A DNA stretch of 64,000 nt from Rickettsiales bacterium (GCA_021299465.1 JAJTHB010000005.1:173044-237043); one strand, 5' to 3'. Positions 1 through 47,059 are shown, numbered from the stretch's first letter. Made by a program: numbers and translations. The notes: generated by a model not told the origin, from the sequence alone.

Positions 1-1
1 C

Positions 2-1045
2 TCAACGAGGTTGCAGGCGGATGGTGGGATTCTGGTGAGGTCGGCGGCGGATGACATTACCGCTTATGATTTTTATTCTGTGCCGGGCTCCTCAAGTCAG
101 CCACCAGGCCCTAATCCGGTGATAGCACTCACCAAGTTGGAGCTGATCGATACAGCAGCATTTCCCGTTGATGAGTTTGATAAAGGCGTGCTTCGTTTCG
201 CTGGTGCTGGATTATCAGATGCATGGAACGGTGCTGCCGTTTATCGCTCAGATGATGCTGGCGCTAACTATAATCGTATTGGCGATATTGCCGCGCCTGC
301 CGCCATGGGAACCGCGATATCGATTCTTCCCGATGGTCCAACACAACTATTTGATGAGAAAAACAATGTTACGGTTAATCTGGTCGGTAATGCTACATTG
401 CAAAGCATTACTGAGTTTGCCGTACTGAACGGCGGCAATATCGCTTTGCTTGGTGATGAATTAATTCAGTTTCGAAATGCTGTATTGCTAGAGCCGGGTA
501 GGTATCAATTAAGTGGATTGCTACGCGGTAGGCTTGGTACGGAGTGGGCGACAAGCGGCCACTTAGCTGGTGAACGATTTATTCTCATGGATGGGCGAGC
601 AACCCGTCAACTCATGCCCACTAGCTTTATCAATCTATTAAGGCAATACAAGGCGGTTAGCTTTGGAAATACTTTAGGTGCTACCCCAGCAAGTGATTTC
701 ACCTACACAGGGGTAGCCTTAAAGCCATATAGCCCTGTTCATATCACGGCTATTCGGGATGGATCAGCCAATATCACGTTAAGCTGGATTAGAAGAACTC
801 GCCTGAGTGGTGCGTGGCAAGACTTTGTGGATGTGCCGCTTAATGAAGAAATGGAGAGCTACGAGGTCGATATCATGAGTGGCTCGAATGTTGTTCGCAC
901 CCTTGCCACTACAACTTCAACTGTCAGCTATCTCGTATCCCAGCAAATTGCTGATTTTGGCAGTGCTCAAGCGTCAGTGACAGCTAGGGTCTATCAGCTT
1001 TCAGCAACGATTGGGCGTGGATATGCAGCTATAGCAACAGTCTAG
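2..1045 (+). CDS. GTA/phage tail host-specificity (baseplate/megatron-like, RcGTA g15-type) protein, C-terminal part; 5' end lies outside the window
   Basis: Frame is open from base 2. Motifs ALLGDELIQF, YQLSGLLRGRLGTE and LSWIRRTR...DVPLNEEMESYEVDI resemble the C-terminus of GTA-type tail proteins. Confidence 0.8.
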   Translation, partial: STRLQADGGILVRSAADDITAYDFYSVPGSSSQPPGPNPVIALTKLELIDTAAFPVDEFDKGVLRFAGAGLSDAWNGAAVYRSDDAGANYNRIGDIAAPAAMGTAISILPDGPTQLFDEKNNVTVNLVGNATLQSITEFAVLNGGNIALLGDELIQFRNAVLLEPGRYQLSGLLRGRLGTEWATSGHLAGERFILMDGRATRQLMPTSFINLLRQYKAVSFGNTLGATPASDFTYTGVALKPYSPVHITAIRDGSANITLSWIRRTRLSGAWQDFVDVPLNEEMESYEVDIMSGSNVVRTLATTTSTVSYLVSQQIADFGSAQASVTARVYQLSATIGRGYAAIATV

Positions 1046-1576
1046 CTACCCCAGCAGTTTTTTCTTTTGCTGCTGAAACTCCTCTTCGGTGAGGTAGCCT
1101 TTTTCCTTTAGATCGGCGAGTTTGGCGAGCTGCGACGCAATATCCGTTGGTGCAGCGGGCCCTGCGTGCATTCGCGCATTAGCCTGTTTGGCAGCAAACA
1201 TGGCTTCTTCGGTTGCTTTCACAAACGGCATGATGGAGCTTTTGAGCACCAGCCGGATGGTAAAGGAGCTGGCCCCATCCCATACACTGATTGAGCCGAA
1301 AGCAATTGTGAATTCATGATCGATCGATTGGATGCGTTCCAGCGGAAACTGAACCTGACGCAGCCCAAAGATCATGCCACGGTTTAGGAAAATCAAACGC
1401 CGGTTAGTGCATACACCAAGCCAGGTGCTGCTGTTCATGATGCCGGATGTGACGGCTTTGACAGATTCATCATTTTCCAGAATCTCAGGCAGCGCGCGAA
1501 TTTCCTTCTCTGTCCAGAAGATATATCGGCCCGGGCAGGCGGCGATCTGGCGTTTGATTTCAGCAAGTGTTGGCAT
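1046..1576 (-). CDS. Bacterial PH-domain protein with C-terminal SHOCT domain
   Basis: GVCTNRRLIFL...QFPLERIQSI is bPH-like; DIASQLAKLADLKEKGYLTEEEFQQQKKKLL is a typical SHOCT. Confidence 0.8.
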   Translation of the reverse strand: MPTLAEIKRQIAACPGRYIFWTEKEIRALPEILENDESVKAVTSGIMNSSTWLGVCTNRRLIFLNRGMIFGLRQVQFPLERIQSIDHEFTIAFGSISVWDGASSFTIRLVLKSSIMPFVKATEEAMFAAKQANARMHAGPAAPTDIASQLAKLADLKEKGYLTEEEFQQQKKKLLG

Positions 1577-1647
1577 GGGGCAACCTCCAATTCACCCATC
1601 ATAGGCAAAGCTTTACCGAAATAAAATCATTTTTAAGGAGTAATTTT

Positions 1648-2553
1648 ATGGCAACTACCAGCCACCTTGGACTCACTCTGGTTGAGCAGGCGCAAGCGCA
1701 AAAAGAAGTGACCGTGAATCAGGCATTCGTCCGTATTGACGCTTTGCTGAATACCGGCGCAAAAAGCCGCGCTACGAATACCCCGCCTGCTTTGCCTGCC
1801 AGCGGTGATTTATATATTGTTGGTACCAGCCCCACTGGCGCATGGGCAGGACAGGCGAAGAAACTTGCTTATTTCGATCAGATTTGGAAATTCATATCGG
1901 CCGGCGAAGGCATGCTCATCTGGGTGAATGATGAATCACGCAGCTATTATTATAATGGTACGGATTGGTTGGCCGTCGTTGGTAATGATTTAAGTGCGCT
2001 TGAAGCATTATCAACCACAGGTTTTGCAGCGCGCACGGCAACCGATACTTGGGCAACACGCTCCATCACCGCCGGCAACGGCATCAATGTCGCTAATGGA
2101 AATGGCGCCTCTGGAAATCCAATCGTTTCATTTATTGGTGGATTTGAGGATCTAGGCGATAGCGGAATTATCAGCCCAGCAAATGGCGAAATAATGGCTT
2201 ATAGTGGTGGTTTGTGGCGGAACGCTAGAGGCATCGCAACGCTATTCTACAACACCCAATCCGCCACTTCTTACACGCTGGTTTCTGCGGATGCTGGCCG
2301 TACCATCTATTGCACAGCAGCGACAAGCATCACCTTAACCATGCCAAACAACTTCAGTGTTGGTTATAACTGCAACATTATTCAGGCAGGCGCCGGACAA
2401 ATCACTTTTACGCCAGCTTCCGGCGCACTTCGCAGGAATCGCCAATCGCATACCAGATCTGCCGGTCAATGGGCGGTGTGCCAGTTACAGGTTGTTGGTA
2501 ATTCAGGTGGAAGCGCGGCGGAGTATGTGCTTTCAGGAGATACGGCAGTATGA
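1648..2553 (+). CDS. DUF2793-domain tail-fibre-like protein
   Basis: N-terminus MATTSHLGLTLVEQAQAQKEVTVNQAFVRIDALL is typical of DUF2793; AAGGAG RBS precedes ATG 1648; Gly/Thr-rich fibre-like C-terminal half. Confidence 0.85.
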   Translation: MATTSHLGLTLVEQAQAQKEVTVNQAFVRIDALLNTGAKSRATNTPPALPASGDLYIVGTSPTGAWAGQAKKLAYFDQIWKFISAGEGMLIWVNDESRSYYYNGTDWLAVVGNDLSALEALSTTGFAARTATDTWATRSITAGNGINVANGNGASGNPIVSFIGGFEDLGDSGIISPANGEIMAYSGGLWRNARGIATLFYNTQSATSYTLVSADAGRTIYCTAATSITLTMPNNFSVGYNCNIIQAGAGQITFTPASGALRRNRQSHTRSAGQWAVCQLQVVGNSGGSAAEYVLSGDTAV

Positions 2554-2798
2554 GCGAAGAAAAACAACATTGGACGGTTGAGCGAAAAATCCCGATCGCT
2601 GTTATTATTGCCCTATTCATTCAGATGCTCGCGGCTGTGATATGGGCAACGGAGCTCGCAGCCCGAGTGGAAACCATCGAGCAGCATTTTTTAAGCAGCA
2701 GCGTTGCCAATGAGAGGTTTGCCCGACTTGAGGAGCGTCTTGAGTATATTCACGAGAACGTGACCATTATCCGCCGCAAGCTGGATAAGACGAATTAG
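2550..2798 (+). CDS. Small phage-type membrane protein (one TM segment plus coiled coil), possibly holin/lysis-associated
   Basis: Hydrophobic IPIAVIIALFIQMLAAVIWA; 4-nt overlap with the upstream gene; directly precedes the lysozyme. Confidence 0.55.
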   Translation: MSEEKQHWTVERKIPIAVIIALFIQMLAAVIWATELAARVETIEQHFLSSSVANERFARLEERLEYIHENVTIIRRKLDKTN

Positions 2799-2811
2799 TA
2801 GTGGTGGGCAT

Positions 2812-3261
2812 ATGATGCAAATATCTCAGGTTGGTATAGATTTGATCAAGCGTTTTGAAGGCTTTGCTTCTGAGCCTTACTATTGCCCCGGCGGAAAGCT
2901 GACTGTGGGTTATGGTCATGTGATGACAGATGAGGAAGCAGCGACTGTGGAGCGCATTACAAAAGAACACGCTGAAATATTACTCAGGCAGGACGCCAAA
3001 ATAGCCGAAGAAGCTATCAATAAATTGGTTTCCGTAGCAATTAAACAAAATCAGTTTGATGCACTGGTTTCGTTTGTGTTCAATGTTGGGGGGCATGCAT
3101 TTGAAAAATCAACCATGCTTAAATTATTGAATAATAATGATATTGGCGCTGCCGCCAGACAATTTGATCGCTGGGTGTATGCCGCAGGTAAGAAATTGGA
3201 GGGGCTGGCAAGGCGCAGGGCTGCTGAAAAGGCTCTATTTTTGGGTGATGCTGATATTTAA
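2812..3261 (+). CDS. Phage lysozyme / endolysin (GH24)
   Basis: IKRFEG...YYCPGGKLTVGYGH, QNQFDALVSFVFNVG and GLARRRAAE are GH24 signatures. Confidence 0.92.
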   Translation: MMQISQVGIDLIKRFEGFASEPYYCPGGKLTVGYGHVMTDEEAATVERITKEHAEILLRQDAKIAEEAINKLVSVAIKQNQFDALVSFVFNVGGHAFEKSTMLKLLNNNDIGAAARQFDRWVYAAGKKLEGLARRRAAEKALFLGDADI

Positions 3262-3331
3262 CAGAATTGTCACACAAAAATAGTCGGGTTTTAGGTATAT
3301 TGAGCCATCAACTTTAATCATGGGAGTTAGT

Positions 3332-3805
3332 ATGGCAGAAGAACAAAAGAATCCGGTTGCGAAAATTGAAGGTGGCAAAGTTGTACCTAGCGCTGCAGCT
3401 GATGCTGTTCAGGCTCAGGCAATTGCTGATGCAGAAGCAGCAGCTGGCATGGCTGTGGGTGGTGATGTTGCTTCGATGCAGCAGGCGCGTGATGCCGCTG
3501 CAGCGGCGGGTGCGACTAATGCCGTTGCCAATCTGGATGCGGCCATAGCTGCTGCGCCACAACAAACCGGTACCTCTAACATTCCGCCAGTCGTCGCTGC
3601 TGCAGCTGAAAAAGGCATTATCACTACTGCACAAGCTGAGCAGATTGGGCAGATGGCAGCTGAACAAACGGTTGCTTCTTCGGTAACTGCTCCTGATCAG
3701 GTTCAGCAATCTTTTGCGAGCAATGTGCAAACACCTGAGACTACTTACACTGGCCAAGTCGCGGCCGATAAAGCTGCTAAACCTGCTACACGTAGCGTTG
3801 CGTAG
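3332..3805 (+). CDS. Ala/Gln-rich hypothetical protein
   Basis: GGGAG RBS before ATG 3332; followed by a strong terminator; no family recognised. Confidence 0.7.
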   Translation: MAEEQKNPVAKIEGGKVVPSAAADAVQAQAIADAEAAAGMAVGGDVASMQQARDAAAAAGATNAVANLDAAIAAAPQQTGTSNIPPVVAAAAEKGIITTAQAEQIGQMAAEQTVASSVTAPDQVQQSFASNVQTPETTYTGQVAADKAAKPATRSVA

Positions 3806-3871: not shown

Positions 3872-4210
3872 CTAGGCGTTCAGGCTGGTTTTTTCTAAGC
3901 GGCTGTTATCGTTGCTGGCGTAGAAGTCATGATCAAAGCCGTAATAATCTTTGATTTTGGTTTTGATCTGAGCCGTCGGCTCCCCATAGCCTTTTTCAAC
4001 AATCACCGCAAAATGCGGAATATCCCCTTTTTCAAGGCAGCTCATCATTTGCTCATGAAGCATCGCGCTGGCAATGGCATAGTAAAACATACGTTCCTTC
4101 TTCAGCTCGTCATAAGCCGGAATAAAATACACGTTAATCTTTTTTGCGGCCTCATATTTGGATTTATAATGAGGCAGGCTTTCCATCATGTCCTGATCGG
4201 GGTTGAGCAT
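3872..4210 (-). CDS. Hypothetical protein, conserved partner of two-gene module copy A
   Basis: Aligns by eye with 18750-18977 and 58126-58455; TGATG coupling to the upstream peptide. Confidence 0.75.
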   Translation of the reverse strand: MLNPDQDMMESLPHYKSKYEAAKKINVYFIPAYDELKKERMFYYAIASAMLHEQMMSCLEKGDIPHFAVIVEKGYGEPTAQIKTKIKDYYGFDHDFYASNDNSRLEKTSLNA

Positions 4211-4389
4211 CAGTCAACTCCTTTTCCAAGGTGATCAGGGCACTTGCTGGCAACCGTTCTTGCTACATGAGTGCCAAGACTTCCTTCACCACAAAGAACA
4301 CCTTTGGAGCCTATGGTGACGTGCTCTGGCTGCTGCCCCCCACGGTGGTTTCGTGTATTCATTCCGTCTACTAAATCACGAACACTCAT
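4210..4389 (-). CDS. 59-aa low-complexity peptide, module copy A
   Basis: AAGGGAG RBS upstream of ATG 4389; stop overlaps the next start; ends HLGKGVD. Confidence 0.6.
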   Translation of the reverse strand: MSVRDLVDGMNTRNHRGGQQPEHVTIGSKGVLCGEGSLGTHVARTVASKCPDHLGKGVD

Positions 4390-4492
4390 AACGTCTCCCT
4401 TCATTTCAATCTACTAGATCGGGAGACATTTTTCACGTTTACATCTGTGAATCTTTTGTGACAGATCGCAGACGAATTGATGACAGTCTAGT

Positions 4493-7105
4493 CTATTTTT
4501 GCTTGCCAAGCGTCTGCGGCAAGTCATTCACCTGCACACGCACCACATGCTTGGAAAGGTCAGGATTTCCTGGCCCGTGGAGCACTTCGCCTTCGAGCTT
4601 TTCCTGCTCACTTTGCGCAGGGTTTCTCTTATGCTCTTCCTGTTTTGCAAGTGTTACAGAAAGCTTAAACCAGCCTTTCTCGGAGGTAAATGGAAGGCTA
4701 TCATCTTTACTTTCTATTAAGAGGGAGCTATTCGCCGCGAGCTTTAAATCCTGCGCGACAGATTCCACCGCCTGCCAGTTCGCCGCAGCATCACTTATAA
4801 ACACTTCAATCTTGTCAACTGGGTTTTTGATCGAAACGCTTGCTTCGGATTTTGCTTTACGCACGACATTCAGAATATCCACCGCAGCGATGCCTGCCAG
4901 CTCGTGTTTTTCATCCAGCGGGAAATCAGCGGCCACTGGCCACTGGCCACGCGCATGCACAGAGCCATGCTTCGCATAATCATCAGCGAAGAGATGGCTG
5001 TAAATCTCCTCGGTGACATGAGGCACAAATGGCGCAAACAGTTTGAGTAGTGCATTCAGGCAGTGATAGAGCGTGCATAGCGCGGATTGTTGATTGCCAG
5101 GCACTTCGCCGTAAGAACGAGCCTTGACCAGCTCAAGATAATTATCGCAGAAATCATTCCAGAAAAAATCTTCGATTGCCACCCGCGCATCTGAGTATTC
5201 AAAGCGCTCAAACTCTGGCGTGGCCTTATGCACCGTGCGATGGAGGCGCGAGAGTATCCATAGATCCAGTGGCTCGCTGATAAGGCCGTTTTTAACATCC
5301 TTAGCGGCGCTGGTTGGCTTTATTTTAAGTTTATCAAGGTTGAGCGCGGCAAACTGGCTGGCATTCCAGATTTTACCCACCAGCTTGCGGCCGATTTTGA
5401 GTAAATCTTCAGAAAAAGCCGTATCAGCGCCGAGGCGAGAAGTCGACGCCCAGTAGCGCACCGCGTCCGTTCCTTTTTCCTCAATGAGCGCCACGGGGGT
5501 TACAACATTACCCTTAGATTTGCTCATTTTGGTTTTGTCAGAAGCTAAGCACCAGCCGGAGATCATCAGGTTTTTCCACGGCACGCAGTCTTCATGCAGG
5601 TGCGCTTTCACGATCGTGTAAAACGCCCATGTGCGTATAATCTCGTGCGCCTGCGGGCGGATATCGGCGGGAAACAACTTGTTTTGCTTTAATGATTTCG
5701 CATTAATCTGCGGCGAAATGGACGAGGTCGCCCACGTATCCATCACGTCCATATCAGGCGTAACTTCATCTCTACCATACCCTTTAGGGGTATCTACCAG
5801 CGGGTCAACAGGCAGTTGATCTGGCGATGCATAAATCGCCTTTCCAACTTCGCCTTCACGCTTCGAATACCACACTGGAAAAGGCACACCGAAAAAGCGC
5901 TGGCGCGAAATGCACCAGTCTTCCTTAAGACCTTCAATCCACTGATTCAGCCGAACGCGCATGTAGTCAGGATGCCAATGGCACTCCGCGCCCTTTGCCT
6001 TTAGCGCTTCTTTTTTATCCGTGATCCGCACGAACCATTGTTCGGTGGGAATAATCTCAATCGGCGTGCCGCTGCGCTCGGCGCATTTGACGCTATGGGT
6101 CATCGGCGTCTGCTTTTTTAGCTTTCCTGCGGCTTGCAGCAACTCCAGAATTTTTGCATTCGCTTGCTTTGGCTTTAGGCCGTTTAATTCGGCTATTTCA
6201 CTTTGCAGCCTTCCGTCTTTGCCTAAAATAGCTTTCAGCGGCAGGTTATATTTTCTCCACCACTCCTTATCCGTATCATCCCCAAAGGTACAACACATCA
6301 CAAGACCAGTGCCTTTGCCTTGTTCTACGGCCTCATCCGCAATCATCGGCACTTTTACACCAAATAGCGGGATGATGGCATGTTTGTCTTTGTAACTTGC
6401 AGCATTCGCATTTTCCGGATGATACATCACCGCGACGCATGCGCCGAGCAGTTCCGGACGGGTGGTCATGATGAGTAGCGGCGAGCCATCTTCCAGCGTG
6501 AACTCAATCTCATTCATCGTGCCCGGAAGTTCTTTATTCTCAATTTCTGCCTGCGCAATGGCGGTTTGATCCACCCAGTCCCAATAAGTTGGCCTAAAAT
6601 CGCGGTAGGCATGGCCTTTTGCCACTAAATCCAGAAATGATGCCTGCGAGAGTGCGCGTACATCGTCGTTGATCGTCTGGTATTCCTTGCGCCAATCCAC
6701 GGAAAGGGCGGTGCTTTTAAACAGTGCGCGGAATTCGTCTTCCGCTTCTTTCACCACCTCTTTACACAGCGCCACAAACTCCGCGCGCGGCATACCCGTA
6801 CCCCGTACCCCTTTGATCTTTTCAACAAGGCGCTCGGTGGGCAGGCCATTATCATCAAAACCCATAGGGTAGAAAACATCTTTGCCGCTCATGCGCTGGT
6901 AGCGCGCGACAAAATCCGCCTGTGTGTAGCTGAAGATATGCCCCATATGCAGAAGGCCGGAGACGGTTGGCGGCGGCGTATCGATGACAAAGGTTTTTTC
7001 GCGCGGCTGGTCGTCGCGGAAATGATACACATCGCTGGTTTCCCACACGCGCTGCCAGTGCTTTTCACGTTCTTTGTGTTCGTAGTTTTTAGGCAGCGGT
7101 TTCAT
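4493..7105 (-). CDS. valS: Valine--tRNA ligase, archaeal/rickettsial type, with ~49-aa C-terminal extension
   Basis: PTVSGLLHMGH (HIGH motif), KMSKS, WCISRQRFFGVPFPVWY, RPQAHEIIRTWAFY; lacks the bacterial C-terminal coiled-coil arm. Confidence 0.95.
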   Translation of the reverse strand: MKPLPKNYEHKEREKHWQRVWETSDVYHFRDDQPREKTFVIDTPPPTVSGLLHMGHIFSYTQADFVARYQRMSGKDVFYPMGFDDNGLPTERLVEKIKGVRGTGMPRAEFVALCKEVVKEAEDEFRALFKSTALSVDWRKEYQTINDDVRALSQASFLDLVAKGHAYRDFRPTYWDWVDQTAIAQAEIENKELPGTMNEIEFTLEDGSPLLIMTTRPELLGACVAVMYHPENANAASYKDKHAIIPLFGVKVPMIADEAVEQGKGTGLVMCCTFGDDTDKEWWRKYNLPLKAILGKDGRLQSEIAELNGLKPKQANAKILELLQAAGKLKKQTPMTHSVKCAERSGTPIEIIPTEQWFVRITDKKEALKAKGAECHWHPDYMRVRLNQWIEGLKEDWCISRQRFFGVPFPVWYSKREGEVGKAIYASPDQLPVDPLVDTPKGYGRDEVTPDMDVMDTWATSSISPQINAKSLKQNKLFPADIRPQAHEIIRTWAFYTIVKAHLHEDCVPWKNLMISGWCLASDKTKMSKSKGNVVTPVALIEEKGTDAVRYWASTSRLGADTAFSEDLLKIGRKLVGKIWNASQFAALNLDKLKIKPTSAAKDVKNGLISEPLDLWILSRLHRTVHKATPEFERFEYSDARVAIEDFFWNDFCDNYLELVKARSYGEVPGNQQSALCTLYHCLNALLKLFAPFVPHVTEEIYSHLFADDYAKHGSVHARGQWPVAADFPLDEKHELAGIAAVDILNVVRKAKSEASVSIKNPVDKIEVFISDAAANWQAVESVAQDLKLAANSSLLIESKDDSLPFTSEKGWFKLSVTLAKQEEHKRNPAQSEQEKLEGEVLHGPGNPDLSKHVVRVQVNDLPQTLGKQK

Positions 7106-36664: not shown

Positions 36665-38542
36665 TCATTTTTTTATGATGCGGTTCTGGCCAAAGAACAG
36701 ACTAATTGCGCATGTTTTTGCATCGGCGCTTTCTTTCAATATACCTGCCTGATGATCAGCGGCGAGAAGGCGCGCAAGTTTTAAATTGATATCGTCAGCA
36801 GGGGTATCGGTTGACAAGACCTTGCGGTGGAGCGTTTCTTCGATTGCGCTTTGTGCAAGCTTGATCAATTCACTATCGCTTTTTGTCTTTATTGCCTGAT
36901 TGCTGAATTCAAATAAAAGGTAATTTCTATCTTTTAGCTCATTGAGCCATCTCACACGAATCATGATGGAGGCTTGCTCATGCTGGTTAAATAAGTGCTG
37001 CATAAGGTTTGAAACCATCTGCTGAAGCCTGAATTCATTGATCATGAGGTTTGGCAGATTAGCCGGGCAATCAATTTCAATTTTCCCGTTGCCTGCATTT
37101 AGATTTGATGAAAGCTGCTTGACGCTTTTTTCTATCACCTGATCGACATCGGTTGGTTTTTCATCTTTGGCAACATAACCGCTTTCGGTCTTACTGAAGG
37201 TAAGAAGCTCCGTTAGTTCCGAAAGCATGTGATTGCTGTTTTGGTAGATATCGAGAGCGCATTGGCGATATTTGCGGTTTTCTATTGGCCCATAGACTTG
37301 GTCTTTCATGACCTGAGAGTAGGTGATGATTTCTGTAATTGGCTTTCTTAGTTCCTGACAGATAAAGCCGAGAAATTCCGATTTGCTATGTTTTTCAATT
37401 TCAGACTGCTCTTTGCTTTGCTTCAGCATAAACATTTTATTGCGAAGCTCATCTTCAACACGGTTACTTTCAGAGATATAGTCACTTATTCTCTCAAACT
37501 CCGTAGCGAGATTCTCAATCTCCTGTGATCCGCCTTGTGGCTTATTGGTGTAGGGTTTGCCTCGCGCAATTTCGCTGGCTGCATCGGTTAGCATGAGTAT
37601 CGGGCGGATCATCCGCGCACGCATGATCCACAAAAACAATACAAAAAATATCGCAAAACCCAATACCTGAAGAAGCCTTGACCAGAGTTGGTTTCTTACG
37701 TTTTCATCATTTTTACGGGCGTCATAGCCTAGCAATATTATATAGGGATGAGCAGGGGCTACGCGATAGTAGGTGTAGAGACTCGAGCCAATAAAAAGAT
37801 TGCCGCGTTCAATAATTCCTTTGTTTGATGCGCTTAAGTTGTTTTTAAGCAGTTTCCTTGCAGGGAAATGATTCAGAACGAATTCTTTCTCGTCCGAGAC
37901 CTCTGTGAGTGGCACCAAATTTTTACTCACGATTGCAAAGCTAATGGAATCTGTTTTGAGCAGTGAGCGTATTTCCTGCGTTAGCATCTCTATATCGACA
38001 CTGATCAAGACTGTGCCGATATGCTTGCCGGTATAATGTGTAACACCCATTGCGATTGGGATAATCCAGCGGCCTGATACCCGCCCATCGACAGGCTCGC
38101 CGATTTGCATTTTCCATGGCTCGTTATAAGCCAGTTTCACATAGTCTCTATCCGAGACATCAATTGGTTCATCCAATACGCCTTTGTTGCTACTTACGAC
38201 AACCTTGCCTTGCGGGCTCACGAATGAGAAAACTGAGTAAATGCTGCCTTTTGTCTCAAAGGATTTCAGCATTCCAGCCATCTGGTTCAAATCCTGCTTA
38301 TCAAATACAGAAATCTGTTTTCCCAATGAACTGAGCAGGTAGCTGCCGTAACGAAGATCACGCTCAAGACTTCGTTCGATTTTACTGGATTCATCGTCGA
38401 GCTTAACGCTTACCTGCCTGGCATGTTTGACATAGGTGCCATAGCTTACCCATGCCGAAATCAGAAAAAGCACAAACAATATCGCCGCGGCTAGTAAGGC
38501 GAAGTCACGTGACAAGGATGGCTGTGACCATGGTGCTTTCAT
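36665..38542 (-). CDS. Cache-domain sensor pseudo-histidine kinase (His to Gln; degenerate ATPase domain)
   Basis: KSEFLGFICQELRKPI versus canonical SHELRTPL; no DxGxG or GxGLG boxes. Confidence 0.8.
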   Translation of the reverse strand: MKAPWSQPSLSRDFALLAAAILFVLFLISAWVSYGTYVKHARQVSVKLDDESSKIERSLERDLRYGSYLLSSLGKQISVFDKQDLNQMAGMLKSFETKGSIYSVFSFVSPQGKVVVSSNKGVLDEPIDVSDRDYVKLAYNEPWKMQIGEPVDGRVSGRWIIPIAMGVTHYTGKHIGTVLISVDIEMLTQEIRSLLKTDSISFAIVSKNLVPLTEVSDEKEFVLNHFPARKLLKNNLSASNKGIIERGNLFIGSSLYTYYRVAPAHPYIILLGYDARKNDENVRNQLWSRLLQVLGFAIFFVLFLWIMRARMIRPILMLTDAASEIARGKPYTNKPQGGSQEIENLATEFERISDYISESNRVEDELRNKMFMLKQSKEQSEIEKHSKSEFLGFICQELRKPITEIITYSQVMKDQVYGPIENRKYRQCALDIYQNSNHMLSELTELLTFSKTESGYVAKDEKPTDVDQVIEKSVKQLSSNLNAGNGKIEIDCPANLPNLMINEFRLQQMVSNLMQHLFNQHEQASIMIRVRWLNELKDRNYLLFEFSNQAIKTKSDSELIKLAQSAIEETLHRKVLSTDTPADDINLKLARLLAADHQAGILKESADAKTCAISLFFGQNRIIKK

Positions 38543-38579
38543 GGAACAAACTATAAGAGATTAAAGAGAAATAGGCAAA

Positions 38580-39674
38580 CTATAGCGCAGCCGAAAGCTG
38601 ACTATCAGCGGCTGGCTGGTTTTCAAGGCGTGCTGCAAAGGAACGATTAGGCTCCAGTTTATGTTTTATCGTTCTAGGATCAATCATTTCAGGCTGGGAA
38701 TTTTGAATATAAAAAGCATCATCGTCATCAATGAATGACTTTGGCACACCTAATGCCGCACTGACATCATGTGCAACATCAGGGCGCGGTGTTTTATTCG
38801 CACGTTTCTTAGCCGAAAGGCGGCTAATCGCATTCCAGATAATAATGGCAGCACTTGTGGCATAGAGGTCCAGCGCAATCACTTTGCCAAACCGGTAGGT
38901 TTTGTTTGCCTGCTGAAGCTCGGTTAATTCTTTCGTAATTGGAGTTGCGGCAATGGCTTTGCCTTCTTTACTCAAAAAAGCAAATTTGCGGGCGAACCAA
39001 TCTTCATATTTATCGAACCAGTATTTATCGGTCGTTTTATCTTTGCCAAGCAATATGTCTGCTGTGATGAAGGATGTTGCAACTGTTGTGAAAGCTGCAA
39101 GCCTGCCTTTGATGACATCGGTCCAGTCTTGTTTTGGAATATCCTTCAGGCGCTCGTGGGCAATTTCTACTTCGCCGGGTTTGCCAATCTTGCGATTAAA
39201 GAAATTGGCAATGGATTCACGGCTATTCTCAAGCCATTTGAGCATTGGAGCAAAGAGATTGCCACCGTGAAACAGTGTCATGGTACTGGCTAAAGCCGCA
39301 GCAACTCTTGCATGTCCCTCTGTTTTTCCGCCTAGTGGATAGATTGGGTTTTCAAGCAGTACCTTTTCAAACCACTGCTGAAACTTTTTGAAAATGTTAG
39401 GGATGCCAGCATAGCTATCTTTGGCATATTTAGGATTAGCAGCAAAGGCTAGAACCGCAGTAATCGCAATGATAAACGCCTTTCCAGTAAGGAACTGGAA
39501 TACATCATAGGCACGCTCGCCGGTTGTTTTTTTGGAGATATCAATGGGCGGTTTGGTTTTCGTCGCTTCGCCTTGTGCAGAGTCGTTCTGCGCTATCTGT
39601 ACGCCAGCAACAGCTGACGGCGAGGTGTCTTGGCGCGCCTTAGTCTCACTCTCTGATGTTGGGCGCTGAACCAT
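38580..39674 (-). CDS. Hypothetical membrane protein, tandem paralogue 3
   Basis: PKQDWTDVIKGRL motif shared with the two neighbours; TM segments. Confidence 0.75.
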   Translation of the reverse strand: MVQRPTSESETKARQDTSPSAVAGVQIAQNDSAQGEATKTKPPIDISKKTTGERAYDVFQFLTGKAFIIAITAVLAFAANPKYAKDSYAGIPNIFKKFQQWFEKVLLENPIYPLGGKTEGHARVAAALASTMTLFHGGNLFAPMLKWLENSRESIANFFNRKIGKPGEVEIAHERLKDIPKQDWTDVIKGRLAAFTTVATSFITADILLGKDKTTDKYWFDKYEDWFARKFAFLSKEGKAIAATPITKELTELQQANKTYRFGKVIALDLYATSAAIIIWNAISRLSAKKRANKTPRPDVAHDVSAALGVPKSFIDDDDAFYIQNSQPEMIDPRTIKHKLEPNRSFAARLENQPAADSQLSAAL

Positions 39675-39679
39675 TGCCG

Positions 39680-40762
39680 CTAGCTCATTCCGGGTTGCAG
39701 GCTGGCAGAATTATCTGGCGATACACGATCAACAAATCGATCGGAACCTGCGCGCTGCTGGTTGATGAGTATATTGGTTTGCCGTGGCTTAACCTGCTCG
39801 GAGAAAAGCTTTTTAGGTGTGCCTGATGGATCTTCGTCCAGCGGAAGCGACGGCGTATCTTCAATAATCGATGCTTTTGGTGTTTTGTCCTTTTTTGCAC
39901 CGTTAGTTAGATAAAGAGTCATCGCGGTGATTTTAGTGAAGACCGTATCCAGCGCGCCTAATCCTACATAACGCGCAAGAACGCCTTCGCCTTTTAGCCT
40001 GGTGGCCAGCTTATCGCCCTTGGGAAACATGCTGACACCTTTTGCCAGCACATCATTAACAACCCAGTCTGTTGTACGAGCTTTACCACCATAATGCCCT
40101 TCGTGGGTAATCATTAAAGGGTTAGCATCATATGGGTTGAGCGGGAATTGTTCGTGGGTGGGTTTGGTTTTGTCGGCCGCAAGCTTATCAAGTGCGGTTC
40201 CGGTTCCTAGTACAAACGCTGACGCAAGAACGCGCCTGCCGATCACGCGCAGCCAGCTCTGCTTGGGCTGCTCTTTTTCAATATAAATTTCATCAGCGGT
40301 CAGCTGGTGGCCGTCCGGCGCAGTTTGATCAATACCAAACTTTTCGTTTAGCCAGTGCACAATTGGGCGCTTGCGGTCTTCCATGAATTTCATGGGAACA
40401 AGCAGCAGCCAGCCACCGCCCGTCAGTGCCAATGTTTCCATGACGACTTTGGTGTTGTAGTAGCCCTTATTGAGAGGCACCTTGCCAACTTTTTCTACAC
40501 CCTGGGCGATTTTACCAACGGCATATTGGAATGGTTTTTTCAGGCGGCCAGAAATCAGCTCATCAGCCAGTATCACCGAGCCCACCAGATTCACCCAGTA
40601 ATTGATGCCCGAATAAACTGTCCAGTTATACCATTTTTCACCCTTGGACATTTCATGCGGCAACGCGGCGCCAGCAGCTGCGGCTTCAGGAGCGGCATCC
40701 ACCCTGATATTCGCATTCTTGCCGGCTACAATCACCGTGCTATCTGTTTTTATCTCAGTCAT
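39680..40762 (-). CDS. Hypothetical membrane protein, tandem paralogue 2
   Basis: PKQSWLRVIGRRV motif. Confidence 0.75.
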   Translation of the reverse strand: MTEIKTDSTVIVAGKNANIRVDAAPEAAAAGAALPHEMSKGEKWYNWTVYSGINYWVNLVGSVILADELISGRLKKPFQYAVGKIAQGVEKVGKVPLNKGYYNTKVVMETLALTGGGWLLLVPMKFMEDRKRPIVHWLNEKFGIDQTAPDGHQLTADEIYIEKEQPKQSWLRVIGRRVLASAFVLGTGTALDKLAADKTKPTHEQFPLNPYDANPLMITHEGHYGGKARTTDWVVNDVLAKGVSMFPKGDKLATRLKGEGVLARYVGLGALDTVFTKITAMTLYLTNGAKKDKTPKASIIEDTPSLPLDEDPSGTPKKLFSEQVKPRQTNILINQQRAGSDRFVDRVSPDNSASLQPGMS

Positions 40763-40771
40763 TGTTTCTAA

Positions 40772-42304
40772 TTAAGTTCCTAGCTGTAGACCTTGTTGTT
40801 CCTGCGACTGCATAATTTTATCCGCAAACGATGCCGATGCTTCTGAGCGCGGCGCTTTTTTTGCTGGTACGCGGTTTGAAAATTTATTTTTCTCTGGCGT
40901 GCAATGTTTTTTAGAGCTGTGCTGGGGTTCTTGTGTTCCAGCAATGCTATCTTCGATAACGGCAACGGCTGGCACAACACTCACCTCGTTCAAACCTTGC
41001 TCGTCATGACATGCTTCCTTGTGCGATTTTTTGGTAAAACCAACTTTTGAAAGCAGGTTGTGAGCAGGCTTCCATTTGGTTGCACCGTAAATTACAACCG
41101 AAAGAATGGTAGTCAGGAAGAATTCTTTAGTAACGAAAAGGCGCGATTGCTCAGCGAATACAGCGCGCTCGACATGCGCAAAGAGTTTGCTGTCTTTTTT
41201 AAGCCCAGCCTCGATATGCTCAATCTCAGCCATGATTTTCAGCTGTTCTTCCGGGTTGCCATGGTATTTTCGTATCTCACTGTGGTGCCCAATAATTTGT
41301 TTACCGGCTTCTAATATTTCAGGCGGTGCATTGGTAATCTTTAGAATATCTTCAAGATTTTCATGTTGTATACCCGATAGCTTTACTTTGTTTGCTGATA
41401 AAAACTTAGCAAGCCAGCTCCTGACTTTTTCTGGCATCCAATCATACATCTTGTTGCCAAAGCCCCAGCCTGCAACCGAGTCGATGTTTTTGTACATGCC
41501 GGGTTTACCCTGGCTGATATGGTTATGCTTGAGAATGCTATCAACGTTATCACGCACCTGATCGATGCTGAAAACAACAGCTAGTGCTACAAGTCGTGCG
41601 CGAATCAGGTTCCACCATGTTTCTTTTGGTTCATCGCCTGGTTTGAGTGCGGCAGCTTCTTTTTCTTCTGGCGTGCGGTTCGGGTGCAGCCAGTTATCAA
41701 CTTTATTGAGGAATCCTTCGCGATGGTTTTCAAGATACCAGACCGGCGCCAGCGCGACAAAACCAGCAATACACATGAACAAGGTCTCAATCGCTGAGCG
41801 ACGAGATTTAGCTGCACGATAGGCTATCTCAGCTGTTTTTTCTGCCTCAGGAAGGGCGTTGAGACCTTTATTTAACTCGACGCCGCCTAATTTGAATGCA
41901 CCATTAACCGCTTTTCCCGGTAGTGAAAGTGCAAACGAAATAACTTTGCCTGCCTCCGATTTTGCCAAGCTCTCCTTCATCCAGTCCGCGCCTTTGGTGG
42001 TCGCGAGGTAGTAGGTGATGACGACAGAAGCAACGTTGTTAAAAATCTGGTGAAGTCCGCCAAAATTTACGAGATGGAAGGCGATGCGCGCGCCTTTTTT
42101 ATTAAAGCGGTTTTCGTGAAGTTCCTGAAGTTTCTTCTCTTTTTCTGATAATGGTTGTTCGTTAGCCTTGCTATCGGTTTGATTCTGAACATTTGGCGAG
42201 GAGTGGCTATGTTTGGTATCAACCTGCACAACAACGGTTTCCTGCTGCTCATGATCAGCGGAATTGGTATTTTCTTGTTTTATTTCAATATTTAACTTCT
42301 TCAT
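40772..42304 (-). CDS. Hypothetical membrane protein, tandem paralogue 1
   Basis: PKETWWNLIRARL motif. Confidence 0.75.
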   Translation of the reverse strand: MKKLNIEIKQENTNSADHEQQETVVVQVDTKHSHSSPNVQNQTDSKANEQPLSEKEKKLQELHENRFNKKGARIAFHLVNFGGLHQIFNNVASVVITYYLATTKGADWMKESLAKSEAGKVISFALSLPGKAVNGAFKLGGVELNKGLNALPEAEKTAEIAYRAAKSRRSAIETLFMCIAGFVALAPVWYLENHREGFLNKVDNWLHPNRTPEEKEAAALKPGDEPKETWWNLIRARLVALAVVFSIDQVRDNVDSILKHNHISQGKPGMYKNIDSVAGWGFGNKMYDWMPEKVRSWLAKFLSANKVKLSGIQHENLEDILKITNAPPEILEAGKQIIGHHSEIRKYHGNPEEQLKIMAEIEHIEAGLKKDSKLFAHVERAVFAEQSRLFVTKEFFLTTILSVVIYGATKWKPAHNLLSKVGFTKKSHKEACHDEQGLNEVSVVPAVAVIEDSIAGTQEPQHSSKKHCTPEKNKFSNRVPAKKAPRSEASASFADKIMQSQEQQGLQLGT

Positions 42305-42443
42305 CGATTACGCTTTTTCTGTGGCATTGCAACATATCCACACTTCTCCACGCTATTAATTTAGCATATTCGCGTACTTAATAATGTGAAGTTTGCATGA
42401 CAAAAGGCCTAATGGCCATTAACAAACTACGCAAAACTGCCAT

Positions 42444-42477
42444 AAAAAAGGCTGCGGATTGTTCCGCAGCCTTTTTT
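42444..42477 (-). terminator. Rho-independent terminator of groESL
   Basis: AAAAAAGGCTGCGGA-TTGT-TCCGCAGCCTTTTTT. Confidence 0.9.
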
Positions 42478-42500
42478 GTTAGATATTACAGTTGGTTGGA

Positions 42501-44180
<1,680 letters not shown>

Positions 44181-44495
44181 TTACGCAGCTTTTTTCTTGC
44201 TGCTGGTCATTTCAATCGTGCCAATCACATCGGATTCTTTGAGCACTTTGTATTCTTTGCCGTCGACTTTGATATCGCTACCAGCCCACTGGGTGAAGAG
44301 AACAATATCACCAACTTCGACATCCATCGGGATGCGCTTGCCATTTTCATCTTTTGCGCCTGGGCCAACGGCCAGTACTTTACCCTGTTTTGGCTTTTCT
44401 TTCGCGGTATCGGGGATGATAATGCCGCCGGCGGTTTTATCTTCCTGCTCAAGGGCTTCGACCACAATGCGGTCGCCAAGTGGTTTAATGTTCAT
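44181..44495 (-). CDS. groS: Co-chaperonin GroES
   Basis: [23 protein letters not shown]. Confidence 0.98.
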
Positions 44496-44570
44496 AACTT
44501 CGAACTCCAATCTAGGTTAAACTTAAGGAAATTGCTGATTAGCCGACATTCTCGACTAAATTTGTATGGC

Positions 44571-45962: not shown

Positions 45963-46015
45963 GTATCTTACTATAATCGCTTGACCGTTTCTTGTCAGCA
46001 GCCTTATCTCACCTT

Positions 46016-47059
46016 ATGAAAATTTTTCATGCATTATTCAGCGATAAGAGCGGGGGCTTGGAGCAGGCCTATTTTGATTACTCTGAAGCGATGGCAAACA
46101 AAGGCCATTCGCTTGTGCTGGCCATCCATCCTGAGGCTAAGTTAAAATCGCAGCTTAGCCAGCTCAGGCAAGAGATTCTAAGTTTTGCTCCCAAAGGCTA
46201 TTATGATTTAGGGACGATCTGGCAATTAAGAAGGGCGATCAGGCAAACCAAGCCTGATGTGGTTCTGGCGCATAATAGCCGTGCAGTGAGTGTACTTAAG
46301 CTGGCTATGCTTGGGCTTTCGATTCCACTTATAGGTGTCAGTCATGGTTATAAAACCAGACGCATGATGCGCGCTGATTACCTGCTGACGCTTACCAACG
46401 ACATGCGTGATCATTTCGTTAAAGCTGGATATTGTGCAAATCGCTGCTTGGTAATGCCCAATATGATCAGGCCGGTGGCATTAGATTACCGGCCAATGAA
46501 TCCCGTGCCTGTCATTGGCGCAATTGGGCGGTTGGTTTATGACAAGGGTTTTCACCAGCTGGTGCAGGCGATGGCCGAGCTTTCGCGGCGCGGTGTGCTT
46601 TGCAGGGCTGTGATTGCGGGTGATGGGATAGAGCGAGATTCGCTACAGCGCTTTGCTGCAGATCTGGGTGTTTCGGATTTAATCAGCTGGACGGGCTGGG
46701 TGCGTGATAAACAACATTTTTATGATACGATCGATTTGCTCGTATTTCCTTCTCTGAATGAGTCATTCGGGCTTGTTGTGCTGGAAGGCATGACTTATTC
46801 AAAGCCCGTTATTGCAAGCAATACCGTCGGCCCGGCTTCGATCATTGAGCATGAAAAAAACGGCCTTCTGTTTGAATCCGGCGATGTGCTGGGGTTGGTG
46901 GAGGCGATAGAGCGGTTGATTGAAAACAGCGTTTCAGCAGAACAGATCGCCAAAGCGGGCAGGGAGCGTTCGCAAGAATTTTCACCTGAGCGATTTGCTG
47001 AGCGATTGGATAAACTGCTTATTAACATCAGAGATAATAGATCAGTGCGATCGTCGTAG
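46016..47059 (+). CDS. Glycosyltransferase family 4
   Basis: IGRLVYDKGF, PSLNESFGLVVLEGM. Confidence 0.9.
   Translation: MKIFHALFSDKSGGLEQAYFDYSEAMANKGHSLVLAIHPEAKLKSQLSQLRQEILSFAPKGYYDLGTIWQLRRAIRQTKPDVVLAHNSRAVSVLKLAMLGLSIPLIGVSHGYKTRRMMRADYLLTLTNDMRDHFVKAGYCANRCLVMPNMIRPVALDYRPMNPVPVIGAIGRLVYDKGFHQLVQAMAELSRRGVLCRAVIAGDGIERDSLQRFAADLGVSDLISWTGWVRDKQHFYDTIDLLVFPSLNESFGLVVLEGMTYSKPVIASNTVGPASIIEHEKNGLLFESGDVLGLVEAIERLIENSVSAEQIAKAGRERSQEFSPERFAERLDKLLINIRDNRSVRSS

What the first reader, a model, noticed from the sequence alone, without database searches (positions are those of the whole stretch)
38580..42304. Shared fixed-distance C-terminal motif in six unrelated proteins: candidate secretion or targeting tag
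An x-[FHY]-x-x-[RKQ]-[VLIT] motif sits 13-14 residues before the stop in six proteins. 38580 protein: SFAARL+14. 39680 protein: RFVDRV+13. 40772 protein: SFADKI+13. ValRS: KHVVRV+13. Peptide A: THVART+14. 3332 protein: TYTGQV+14. In each it follows a low-complexity linker. I did not notice it at the ends of the other housekeeping proteins, but made no systematic count. Established: alphaproteobacterial T4SS substrates often use C-terminal signals. Inference: a lineage-specific C-terminal translocation or recognition signal; no secretion machinery lies in this window.
Basis: partly seen in the sequence, partly recalled or inferred. Interest (0 to 1): 0.68.

Follow-up and report, generated by a model that had tools for sequence, protein, structure and literature searches.

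The report
Shared C-terminal tail motif, reader unknown

Summary
All six strings exist at the stated distances, but the proteins are not six independent cases. The three genes at 38580-42304 are distant paralogs of one unannotated membrane-protein family (743 cluster representatives). The ValRS tail and peptide A are homologous to each other. ValRS, peptide A and the 3320 protein score within proteome noise, and the ValRS tail is absent from the ortholog in a related genome.

The core observation holds in a sharper form. [S/N/G]-[F/H/Y]-[A/V/T]-[E/D/Q/A]-[R/K]-[I/L/V/A], with the aromatic residue 15-18 residues from the end of a disordered tail, is conserved across the family. The same motif at the same distance is conserved in unrelated families elsewhere in the genome: a ParB/Noc-fold soluble protein (33 of 44 homologs), a 355-aa membrane protein and small glycine-zipper proteins.

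Carriers are fast-evolving or lineage-specific. No shared DNA repeat explains the tails. In all three families with many homologs, the last six residues almost lack acidic residues, as in tails of known type IV secretion substrates. The genome encodes VirD4 and two VirB4.

My best reading is a cytoplasmic recognition peptide, most likely a signal for the T4SS coupling protein (about 0.35-0.4). Protease-tag and other docking roles remain open.

The parts
40772..42304 (-). Paralog 1 (510 aa) of the unannotated polytopic membrane-protein family ('family 1'). It is the first gene of the array, 196 nt downstream of groEL.
   Evidence: ORF. No Pfam or NCBIfam hit. Paralogy by blastp and family HMM (E 1.7e-6). 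The ortholog in L012 is 51% identical.
39680..40762 (-). Paralog 2 (360 aa), the best-conserved member. It has a helical membrane core with a beta hairpin (residues about 35-290) and a disordered tail (291-360). Its start lies 9 nt after the stop of paralog 1.
   Evidence: 77 homologs. 743 cluster representatives at E<=1e-3. AF2 mean pLDDT 80.8, with the tail at pLDDT about 45-55. Foldseek against PDB finds nothing (best E 0.19). Intergenic sequence.
38580..39674 (-). Paralog 3 (364 aa), the last gene of the array. Its start lies 5 nt after the stop of paralog 2. A Cache-HAMP-HisKA sensor kinase gene follows at 36665-38542.
   Evidence: The synteny groES-groEL-[1-4 paralogs]-kinase is seen in nine related MAG loci.
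40814..40831 (-). Motif S-F-A-D-K-I of paralog 1, followed by 13 residues (MQSQEQQGLQLGT) and the stop.
   Evidence: Sequence read. Scores 12.7 bits on the 7-column matrix trained on outside homologs.
39722..39739 (-). Motif R-F-V-D-R-V of paralog 2, followed by 13 residues (SPDNSASLQPGMS) and the stop.
   Evidence: Sequence read. Scores 9.2 bits. Homologs have S/N rather than R before the aromatic residue.
38625..38642 (-). Motif S-F-A-A-R-L of paralog 3, followed by 14 residues (ENQPAADSQLSAAL) and the stop.
   Evidence: Sequence read. Scores 9.7 bits.
39683..39892 (-). Disordered C-terminal tail of paralog 2 (residues 291-360). It consists of a Lys-rich stretch after the last helix, a variable linker, the motif, and an acid-free end.
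   Evidence: AF2 per-block pLDDT of 66, 53, 51, 49, 43, 48 and 51 over residues 291-360, with no secondary structure. Composition by position.

Best explanation
SHOWN.
- The three window genes are paralogs of a large, unnamed family of inner-membrane proteins of uncultured Rickettsiales-like Alphaproteobacteria.
- Each ends in a disordered tail whose last 18-20 residues form a conserved module.
- The module starts with [S/N/G]-[F/H/Y]-[A/V/T]-[E/D/Q/A]-[R/K]-[I/L/V/A].
- About 8 polar residues rich in Q, A, S and charged residues follow. The last six residues almost lack acidic residues and are rich in small or hydrophobic ones.
- The same module at the same distance from the stop is conserved on proteins with unrelated folds in this and related genomes. 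It therefore behaves as a portable tag, not as a quirk of one family.

INFERRED.
- The tag is read in the cytoplasm by one common partner. One carrier is a soluble ParB/Noc-fold protein with no signal peptide evident by eye.
- The membrane proteins' tails follow a Lys-rich segment after the last helix, which suggests a cytoplasmic location.
- The initial Ser with Glu three residues on looks like a helix capping box. This suggests a short helical docking peptide that presents the aromatic and aliphatic residues on one face.

MOST LIKELY READER (inference by analogy, untested).
- The coupling protein VirD4/RvhD4 of the genome's rvh-type type IV secretion system.
- The tag would then mark about 10-14 fast-evolving proteins per genome for translocation. 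These are polytopic and glycine-zipper membrane proteins and a ParB-like protein.
- ValRS, peptide A and probably the 3320 protein do not carry the tag.
For: FAMILY-LEVEL CONSERVATION.
- The tails of the 77 homologs carry the motif, with the aromatic residue 15-17 residues before the end in 56 of 78 tails anchored.
- 56 of 107 more distant full-length representatives still carry it.
- Paralogs that have diverged to about 20-28% identity keep it.

CROSS-FAMILY CONSERVATION.
- A matrix trained only on family 1 finds the motif at 14-20 from the end in 33 of 44 homologs of the C4:34602 protein and 4 of 8 homologs of the C8:42605 protein. The rate over two whole proteomes is 67 of 3755 (tails).
- The C4:34602 protein has a ParB/Noc fold: AF2 pLDDT 85.9 and Foldseek probability 1.00.
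- hhalign finds no homology between family 1 and the C8:42605 family (probability 0.55%).
- The motif is kept between G000 and G077 orthologs that are 28-43% identical.

STATISTICS AND CONTROLS.
- Combined matrix at >=12 bits: 3 proteins per genome outside the training families, against 0.12-0.13 expected (p about 3e-4).
- The tails share no DNA repeat.
- The AF2 helix of the ParB-like tail starts at F217, directly after S216.

POINTERS TO THE T4SS.
- VirD4 and two VirB4 genes are present.
- Carriers are lineage-specific or fast-evolving.
- Acidic residues make up 0.02 of the last six positions in all three families, against 0.10 proteome-wide, with Q/A/S-rich stretches before them. This matches the description of the C-terminal tails of Xanthomonas T4SS substrates (PMC8740702, section 6).
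- RalF and RARP-2 of Rickettsia bind RvhD4 through C-terminal tails that follow variable linkers (PMC4546372 and PMC11077975).
Against: - No experiment or co-occurrence pattern ties the tag to VirD4. VirD4 is in 81 of 81 genomes of the order, family 1 in 16 and the ParB-like family in 1. The phyletic test is therefore uninformative.
- Tag-bearing genes are not next to T4SS genes in G000 (coordinates).
- The genome's ankyrin and patatin proteins, which are classic effector types, lack the tag and have basic tails instead.
- Family-1 tails have a net charge of about -0.6 over the last 20 residues and no Arg in the last six. VirB/D4 signals are usually positively charged.
- Family 1 has a well-conserved core and a fixed position between groESL and a sensor kinase. 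This looks more like a resident membrane function than a typical effector.
- Polytopic inner-membrane proteins are unusual T4SS cargo.
- Enrichment outside the named families is only about two-fold.
- Membrane topology was judged by eye, not by a predictor.
Confidence: 0.38

Rival explanations
1. Degradation or quality-control tag. On this reading the tail is a C-terminal degron, or an adaptor-binding peptide plus a degron, read by an AAA+ protease such as ClpXP with SspB, Lon or FtsH. It would give a set of accessory and membrane proteins a controlled lifetime. The fixed distance to the C-terminus would reflect the spacing between an adaptor site and the protease-engaged end.
For: - The tag sits at the extreme C-terminus of disordered tails.
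- The last residues are small or hydrophobic and acid-free.
- The genome encodes SspB right beside tmRNA.
- The family-1 array sits directly after groESL, among stress genes.
- Cytoplasmic AAA+ proteases are universal, which would explain a tag shared by patchily distributed families.
Against: - The extreme C-termini differ between families: G-[V/I/L] or A-P in family 1, an invariant Q-R in the C8:42605 family, L-N or L-H in the ParB-like family. No common LAA/VAA-like end exists.
- The organism's own tmRNA tag, ANDNVAFVAANDNAVVAVRAAA, scores only 2.8 and -9.5 bits on the two tail matrices.
- The conserved part lies 12-15 residues from the end, not at the end.
Confidence: 0.17
2. Docking peptide for some other cytoplasmic hub. 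Candidates are a polar organiser, a cytoskeletal or scaffold protein, a chaperone, or a lineage-specific receptor. The peptide would recruit diverse membrane proteins and a ParB-like DNA-binding protein to one place. Secretion and proteolysis would not be involved.
For: - The tag has the form of a short helical linear motif: a capping-box-like S-x-x-E, and an AF2 helix that starts right after the Ser.
- It sits in disordered tails on proteins of unrelated folds.
- ParB-family proteins are commonly tethered to hubs in Alphaproteobacteria (established knowledge).
- The neutral or acidic family-1 tails do not look like classical secretion signals.
Against: - No candidate hub was identified.
- A simple docking motif need not sit at a fixed distance from the C-terminus, yet the distance is tight: 15-18 in three families.
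- Carriers are patchy and fast-evolving, which is less typical of clients of a housekeeping scaffold.
Confidence: 0.22
3. The motif is only a family-1 feature, and the resemblance in other families is coincidence. On this reading the tail serves an internal role in the membrane-protein family, for example assembly of the tandem paralogs into a hetero-oligomer. Look-alike tails elsewhere would be chance or convergent low-complexity sequence.
For: - Family 1 supplies most high-scoring tails.
- Enrichment outside it is about two-fold only.
- Several look-alikes are demonstrably chance: IMPDH, aspartokinase, the pfkB kinase and the glycosyltransferase at 45992-47059.
- Families 1, C8:42605 and C16:58762 also share an E-x-P-K-Q-x-W element, so some 'unrelated' carriers could be remote relatives.
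Against: - The ParB/Noc-fold family cannot be a relative of a polytopic membrane protein, yet 33 of 44 of its homologs keep the motif at the same distance behind a linker that varies in length and sequence.
- The C8:42605 family keeps it, often twice.
- The AF2 monomer model does not dock the tail on the family-1 core.
- Single-copy members and soluble carriers argue against a role specific to the array.
Confidence: 0.1
4. Nascent-chain signal acting inside the ribosome at termination. When the stop codon is in the A site, an aromatic residue 15-18 positions back lies near the tunnel constriction. The tail could slow termination, for example to couple translation of the tightly spaced downstream paralog or to allow membrane insertion.
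For: - The distance to the stop codon is nearly fixed.
- The array has 5- and 9-nt intergenic gaps.
- Known arrest peptides such as SecM and TnaC have key aromatic residues 12-16 positions from the arrest point (established knowledge, recalled and not tested here).
Against: - The residues nearest the stop are not conserved between families.
- The distance still varies from 13 to 22.
- The tag also occurs on last genes of arrays, on single genes and on soluble proteins.
- There is no evidence of downstream regulatory targets.
Confidence: 0.03

Closest known systems
C-terminal translocation signals of VirB/VirD4-type (P-type) T4SS substrates, including the RvhD4-binding tails of Rickettsia RalF and RARP-2 (PMC4546372, PMC11077975)
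   Same: An uncleaved signal at the extreme C-terminus, behind a variable or disordered linker, on otherwise unrelated proteins. It is read in the cytoplasm. The host genome carries VirD4 and VirB4. Carriers are fast-evolving accessory proteins.
   Different: - The papers read here state no sequence consensus for rvh substrates, whereas this tag is a defined six-residue core at a fixed distance.
- Classical signals are net positive (from memory: the Agrobacterium R-x7-R-x-R-x-R type), while family-1 tails are neutral to slightly acidic.
- No binding or translocation evidence exists here.
XVIPCD C-terminal domain of Xanthomonadales bacteria-killing T4SS effectors (X-Tfes; PMC8740702)
   Same: It marks diverse toxin-like proteins for VirD4. 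Its unstructured tail is rich in Q, A and charged residues up to about position -8. The last six residues lack acidic residues and are rich in small or hydrophobic ones. One search shows the same pattern here.
   Different: XVIPCD is a domain of about 120 residues with a folded alpha-alpha-beta-beta-beta part that does the VirD4 binding. Here there is no folded domain, only about 20 residues. Family 1 has no Arg in its last six residues.
ssrA (tmRNA) tag with SspB adaptor and ClpXP
   Same: A bipartite C-terminal peptide read in the cytoplasm, with an aromatic-containing adaptor site upstream of a small, nonpolar end. SspB and tmRNA are both present in this genome.
   Different: The genome's own tag scores as noise on the tail matrices. 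The ends are not LAA/VAA-like and differ between families. The spacing is longer, at 12-15 residues.
Eukaryote-style short linear motifs (SLiMs) in disordered tails, and bacterial examples such as the SSB C-terminal tip or the FtsZ C-terminal peptide
   Same: A 6-residue conserved core inside a disordered, otherwise unconserved tail. The likely helical docking peptide is portable between unrelated proteins.
   Different: Those bacterial examples each belong to one protein that recruits many partners. Here many proteins carry one peptide, presumably for one partner.

Membership tests
VirB/VirD4-type T4SS C-terminal translocation signal | Located at the extreme C-terminus in an unstructured region and not cleaved off as part of a folded domain | tested here: met
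   The AF2 tail of the 39680 protein has pLDDT about 45-55 and no secondary structure. The ParB-like tail has pLDDT 52-65 behind a confident core. The motif lies 12-15 residues from the stop.
VirB/VirD4-type T4SS C-terminal translocation signal | Net positive charge or Arg-rich pattern in the last ~20 residues | tested here: inconclusive
   Mean net charge over the last 20 residues is -0.64 in family 1, +0.89 in the C8:42605 family and +2.36 in the ParB-like family, against +0.70 for the proteome. An Arg at +8 from the aromatic residue is common in two families but not in family 1.
VirB/VirD4-type T4SS C-terminal translocation signal | A T4SS with a coupling protein is encoded in the same genome | tested here: met
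   VirD4 at C29:11722-13035 (E 9e-146) and VirB4 at C19 and C29. VirD4 is also present in G077 and G081-G083. It is present in all 81 genomes sampled, so this feature does not discriminate.
VirB/VirD4-type T4SS C-terminal translocation signal | The tail binds the coupling protein and is necessary and sufficient for translocation | not testable with these tools
   This needs two-hybrid or pull-down assays and reporter translocation assays.
XVIPCD (X-Tfe VirD4-interacting domain) | [quoted passage not shown] | tested here: not met
   No folded element precedes the motif in the 39680 tail. In the ParB-like family the region before the motif varies in length and sequence. Only the tail composition resembles XVIPCD tails.
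ssrA-like degron (SspB site plus ClpX-binding LAA/VAA end) | Resemblance to the organism's own tmRNA tag and a conserved nonpolar A-A type C-terminus | tested here: not met
   The tag ANDNVAFVAANDNAVVAVRAAA scores 2.8 and -9.5 bits. C-termini differ by family, for example G-V/I, A-P, Q-R and L-N/L-H.
VirB6/TrbL family (considered for the tandem membrane-protein triad because of earlier notes on other genomes) | Match to Pfam TrbL/VirB6 (PF04610), or fold likeness to TrwI/VirB6 structures | tested here: not met
   No Pfam family at E<=0.1 for any of the three proteins. The Foldseek search of the AF2 model against PDB lists no TrwI/VirB6 chain among its top 50, with best E 0.19.
Sortase / exosortase / rhombosortase type C-terminal sorting signals | A short motif followed by a hydrophobic transmembrane helix and a basic tail | tested here: not met
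   The 12-15 residues after the motif are polar (Q, A, S, E, D, P) with no hydrophobic helix.
ParB/Noc/Spo0J fold (for the unrelated carrier C4:34602-35306) | ParB/Srx-type N-terminal domain with a GxxR/DGHHR-type motif plus a helical DNA-binding domain | tested here: met
   Foldseek gives Noc, ParB and Spo0J at probability 1.00, E 2e-5 to 3e-3 and TM up to 0.5. D78-G79-H80-H81-R82 are invariant in the family alignment. Pfam itself gives no hit at E<=0.01.

The most novel reading that the evidence does not exclude
The tag would be the first sequence-defined translocation signal of the Rickettsiales rvh type IV secretion system. It would be a helical S-aromatic-x-E-R-aliphatic peptide about 16 residues from an acid-free C-terminus, read by RvhD4. 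It would define, by sequence alone, an effector set in environmental Rickettsiales made largely of membrane-inserting proteins (polytopic and glycine-zipper types) and a ParB-like DNA-binding or nuclease-type protein. That fits the proposal that ancestral rvh systems targeted neighbouring microbes rather than animal cells.
Probability: 0.3. Interest if true: 0.85.

Novelty: new variant of a known kind. Interest (0 to 1): 0.6.

Why it matters
Substrates of the Rickettsiales rvh secretion system are hard to find. In the papers read here effectors were identified one by one through binding assays with RvhD4, and no signal consensus is stated. A short, scorable tag shared by unrelated fast-evolving proteins would let candidate substrates be listed directly from metagenome-assembled genomes of uncultured relatives. 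The same would hold for clients of whatever machine reads the tag.

The work also defines a large membrane-protein family that has no name in Pfam or NCBIfam. It has 743 cluster representatives at 50% identity and a fold that matched nothing in the PDB. Its position beside groESL is conserved.

Tried and rejected
1. ValRS, peptide A and the 3320 protein as carriers: rejected or left doubtful.
- Their matrix scores are low.
- The ValRS tail is absent in the G077 ortholog.
- The ValRS tail and peptide A are homologous to each other.
- The homolog of the 3320 protein in L133 has its HVDQV 34 residues from the end. A variant, KTYAGQV, does occur in one family-1 tail (P0241), so the 3320 protein is 'cannot tell, probably not'.

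2. Other look-alike tails are chance. The glycosyltransferase at 45992-47059 (RFAERL+16), the pfkB kinase at C16:143663, C4:87917 and C2:31084 do not keep the motif in G077 orthologs; IMPDH, aspartokinase and the BON protein keep it, but their orthologs are 72-80% identical overall and the residues look like part of the conserved protein rather than a tail.

3. A shared DNA repeat or cassette at gene ends: blastn of the last 93 nt of 14 carriers found only 10-13-nt matches.

4. tmRNA-tag mimicry: low scores.

5. VirB6-like identity of the triad: no Pfam or Foldseek support.

6. Homology between family 1 and the C8:42605 family: hhalign probability 0.55%. A short shared E-x-PKQ-x-[W/M] segment remains unexplained.

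7. Phyletic correlation with VirD4: uninformative, because VirD4 is in 81 of 81 genomes.

8. Promoter and terminator scan of 38300-42700: counts are at shuffle level.

9. Ankyrin and patatin proteins as positive controls for the tag: they lack it.

10. A link to gene transfer agents was considered. In G081 the ParB-like gene sits just after a GTA cluster. In G000 it is elsewhere, so I did not pursue this.

11. ARAGORN found no tmRNA in the joined G077 contigs, so tags could not be compared between genomes.

Full report
WHAT IS AT THE LOCUS

On the minus strand, after groES (44181-44510) and groEL (42501-44156), lie three co-oriented genes. They are 40772-42304 (510 aa), 39680-40762 (360 aa) and 38580-39674 (364 aa). 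Only 9 and 5 nt separate them. A Cache-HAMP-HisKA sensor kinase follows at 36665-38542. None of the three has a Pfam or NCBIfam match.

They are not unrelated. Pairwise blastp gives E 6e-6, 5e-6 and 4e-4. An HMM built from outside homologs of the middle gene recovers all three, plus a fourth copy at C13:2595-3458 of the same genome.

CHECK OF THE SIX CLAIMED INSTANCES

All six strings are present at the stated distances. Peptide A is the 64-codon ORF at 4210-4404 (minus strand), between ValRS and a 112-aa gene.

- The ValRS tail and peptide A align with each other (E 4e-4).
- The six cases therefore collapse to three lineages.
It occurs at +13/+14 in 28 of 1882 called proteins, against 13.8 expected. 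About 0.45 hits are expected among the 62 window genes.
- On a 7-column matrix trained on outside homologs, ValRS (3.6 bits), the 3320 protein (4.7) and peptide A (7.2) are matched or beaten by 70, 47 and 24 of 1882 proteins respectively.
- The ValRS ortholog of a related genome has no such tail.

THE MOTIF IS REAL IN THE MEMBRANE FAMILY

- The middle protein has 77 homologs in a 5.8-billion-protein collection. All are 'hypothetical' and come from uncultured Alphaproteobacteria or Rickettsiales MAGs.
- A full HMMER scan of 1.84 billion cluster representatives finds 743 at E<=1e-3 and 405 at E<=1e-10.
- Anchored on the aromatic residue, the tails read [S43/N13]-[F39/H24/Y15]-[A/T/V]-[E/D/A]-[R/K/A/L]-[A/I/V/L]. 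The aromatic residue is 15-17 residues from the end in 56 of 78 tails.
- Many tails carry a second copy upstream.
- 56 of 107 further, more distant full-length representatives keep the motif at 15-19.
- In 17 loci from related MAGs the family forms arrays of one to four very divergent paralogs, nearly all with the tail. Nine loci keep the order groES-groEL-array-kinase.
- AlphaFold2 with the family alignment gives a confident helical core with a beta hairpin (residues about 35-290, mean pLDDT 80.8) and a disordered tail (pLDDT about 45-55).
- Foldseek against the PDB finds nothing (best E 0.19). In particular it finds no VirB6/TrwI.

THE SAME TAIL OCCURS ON UNRELATED PROTEINS

Scanning the genome's own proteome with the family-derived matrix gave hits outside the family. 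I followed these up.

(a) C8:42605-43672, a 355-aa membrane protein.
- Its homologs end in ...RSFVERVARVP..Q.[S/G][H/Y]VQR[L/V], then 14 residues ending in QR.
- Profile-profile comparison with family 1 is not significant (probability 0.55%).

(b) C4:34602-35306, 234 aa.
- 45 homologs were found, down to 43% identity.
- A linker of variable length and sequence is followed by [G/S]-[F/H]-[V/A]-x-[R/K]-[L/V/I]-x-x-x-R, with the aromatic residue 16-18 from the end.
- Its AF2 model (pLDDT 85.9) matches Noc, ParB and Spo0J structures at Foldseek probability 1.00. It is a soluble protein unrelated to a polytopic membrane protein.
- The modelled terminal helix starts at F217, right after S216. Together with the frequent S-x-x-E this suggests a helix capping box (inference).

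(c) Smaller or weaker families keep the motif between this genome and G077. G077 belongs to the same taxonomic family but a different genus. I fetched it whole and called its genes crudely.
- The 171-aa glycine-zipper protein at C4:42519 has KSFVESL, and its ortholog has KSFVADL.
- C16:58762 and its two G077 counterparts keep the motif.
- C36:164966 and its ortholog keep it as triple [S/T]-H-x-x-x-[V/L] repeats.
- New high scorers appear in each genome: C26:9850 in G000, and g77C6:366586 and g77C6:503262 in G077.

STATISTICS

- Hits of at least 9 bits outside family 1, at aromatic-to-end 14-20, number 12 in G000 and 11 in G077. About 12 in total are expected from neighbouring offsets (p about 0.003).
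- With a matrix pooled over three families, 3 proteins per genome outside the training families exceed 12 bits, against 0.12-0.13 expected from pseudo-termini (p about 3e-4).
- A matrix trained on family 1 alone detects 33 of 44 ParB-like and 4 of 8 C8-type homologs, against 67 of 3755 proteins overall. Homologs are not independent, so I take this as evidence of conservation, not as a p-value.
- The tails share no DNA repeat.

WHO CARRIES THE TAG

I count about 14 proteins in this genome. None of those searched has a Pfam or NCBIfam family above its cut-off.

- Eight have no reciprocal best hit in G077, against 31% of all proteins (Fisher p 0.04).
- The other six are 26-43% identical to their orthologs, against a median of 63%.
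- The ParB-like family is absent from the other 80 genomes sampled in the order. Family 1 is present in 16 of 81.

WHAT READS THE TAG

By eye, one carrier is soluble with no signal peptide evident, and the membrane proteins' tails follow a Lys-rich segment. Recognition is therefore probably cytoplasmic (inference).

Evidence for the T4SS:
- The genome has VirD4 and two VirB4 genes.
- RalF and RARP-2 of Rickettsia bind RvhD4 through C-terminal tails behind variable linkers. The passages I read state no consensus.
- The composition of the tails matches the description of the tails of Xanthomonas T4SS substrates. Acidic residues make up 0.02 of the last six positions in all three families, against 0.10 proteome-wide. 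Small residues and Q/N are enriched.

Evidence against the T4SS:
- VirD4 is in all 81 genomes, so there is no phyletic signal.
- Carriers are not next to T4SS genes.
- The ankyrin and patatin proteins lack the tag.
- Family-1 tails are not basic.
- Family 1 has a conserved core and a fixed chromosomal position.

A protease-tag reading is weakened because the ends differ between families and the organism's tmRNA tag does not resemble the tail. SspB is nevertheless present.

VERDICT

The finding as written mixes true members with chance hits, but it points to a real portable C-terminal tag that I did not find described.

- I am about 0.8 confident that the tag is a shared functional element.
- I am about 0.35-0.4 confident that the T4SS coupling protein is its reader.

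Noticed in passing
window 1-3805 and 4210-7105; L133:1-15094: The window starts with the end of a gene-transfer-agent-like cluster. It has a 1224-aa g15-type protein ending at 1045, a SHOCT-like gene (1046-1576), a gene at 1567-2553 in the slot of L133's DUF2793 gene, and a lysozyme-position gene (2812-3261). The 3320 protein follows, then ValRS on the opposite strand. A related MAG (L133) shows the same order and has the tag-bearing ParB-like gene inserted between the lysozyme region and ValRS.
   Followed up: partly
genome contig C4:12564-13385 (outside the window): The permuted tmRNA encodes an unusually long 22-residue tag, ANDNVAFVAANDNAVVAVRAAA, which looks like an internal duplication of the usual alphaproteobacterial ANDN... 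tag. The sspB gene lies directly beside it.
   Followed up: partly
window 40267-40293 (paralog 2), 41629 region (paralog 1), 39130 region (paralog 3); C8:42605-43672; C16:58762-61098: A second short element, [E/D]-x-P-K-[Q/E/D]-x-[W/M]-x-x-x-[I/L/V], sits just before a membrane helix in all four family-1 paralogs. It also occurs in two other tag-bearing families (GEKPKQTMLMTI and LPKDKWMQVL). Six of the 23 proteins matching the regex carry the tail. Remote homology or a second shared motif is possible.
   Followed up: partly
genome contig C16:134714-135786 (outside the window): Two adjacent small glycine/alanine-rich membrane proteins (148 and 204 aa) end in similar weak versions of the tail: GQFAAREDARRGAPAGQQLGA and GQHTAAVTEKRMGAPAQQAQVG. 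This is another tandem paralog pair with the tag.
   Followed up: no
window 36665-38542: The sensor kinase that always follows the array shows dCache_1, HAMP and HisKA domains. No HATPase_c match appears at E<=0.1, so its ATP-binding domain may be very divergent or lost.
   Followed up: no
C16:58762-61098 versus G077 C7:36496-39129: The 778-aa tag-bearing protein of this genome is an internal duplication or fusion. In G077 the two halves are separate adjacent genes (487 and 388 aa), each with its own tail. They lie about 15 kb from that genome's virD4.
   Followed up: no
C17:44030-45196 and C35:10090-11229 (outside the window): The only ankyrin-repeat protein and one of the three patatin-like proteins end in strongly basic tails (…GQTRRVYQRHPAR and …ARKKPKKK). 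This is the classical look of VirB/D4 substrates and is distinct from the tag studied here.
   Followed up: no
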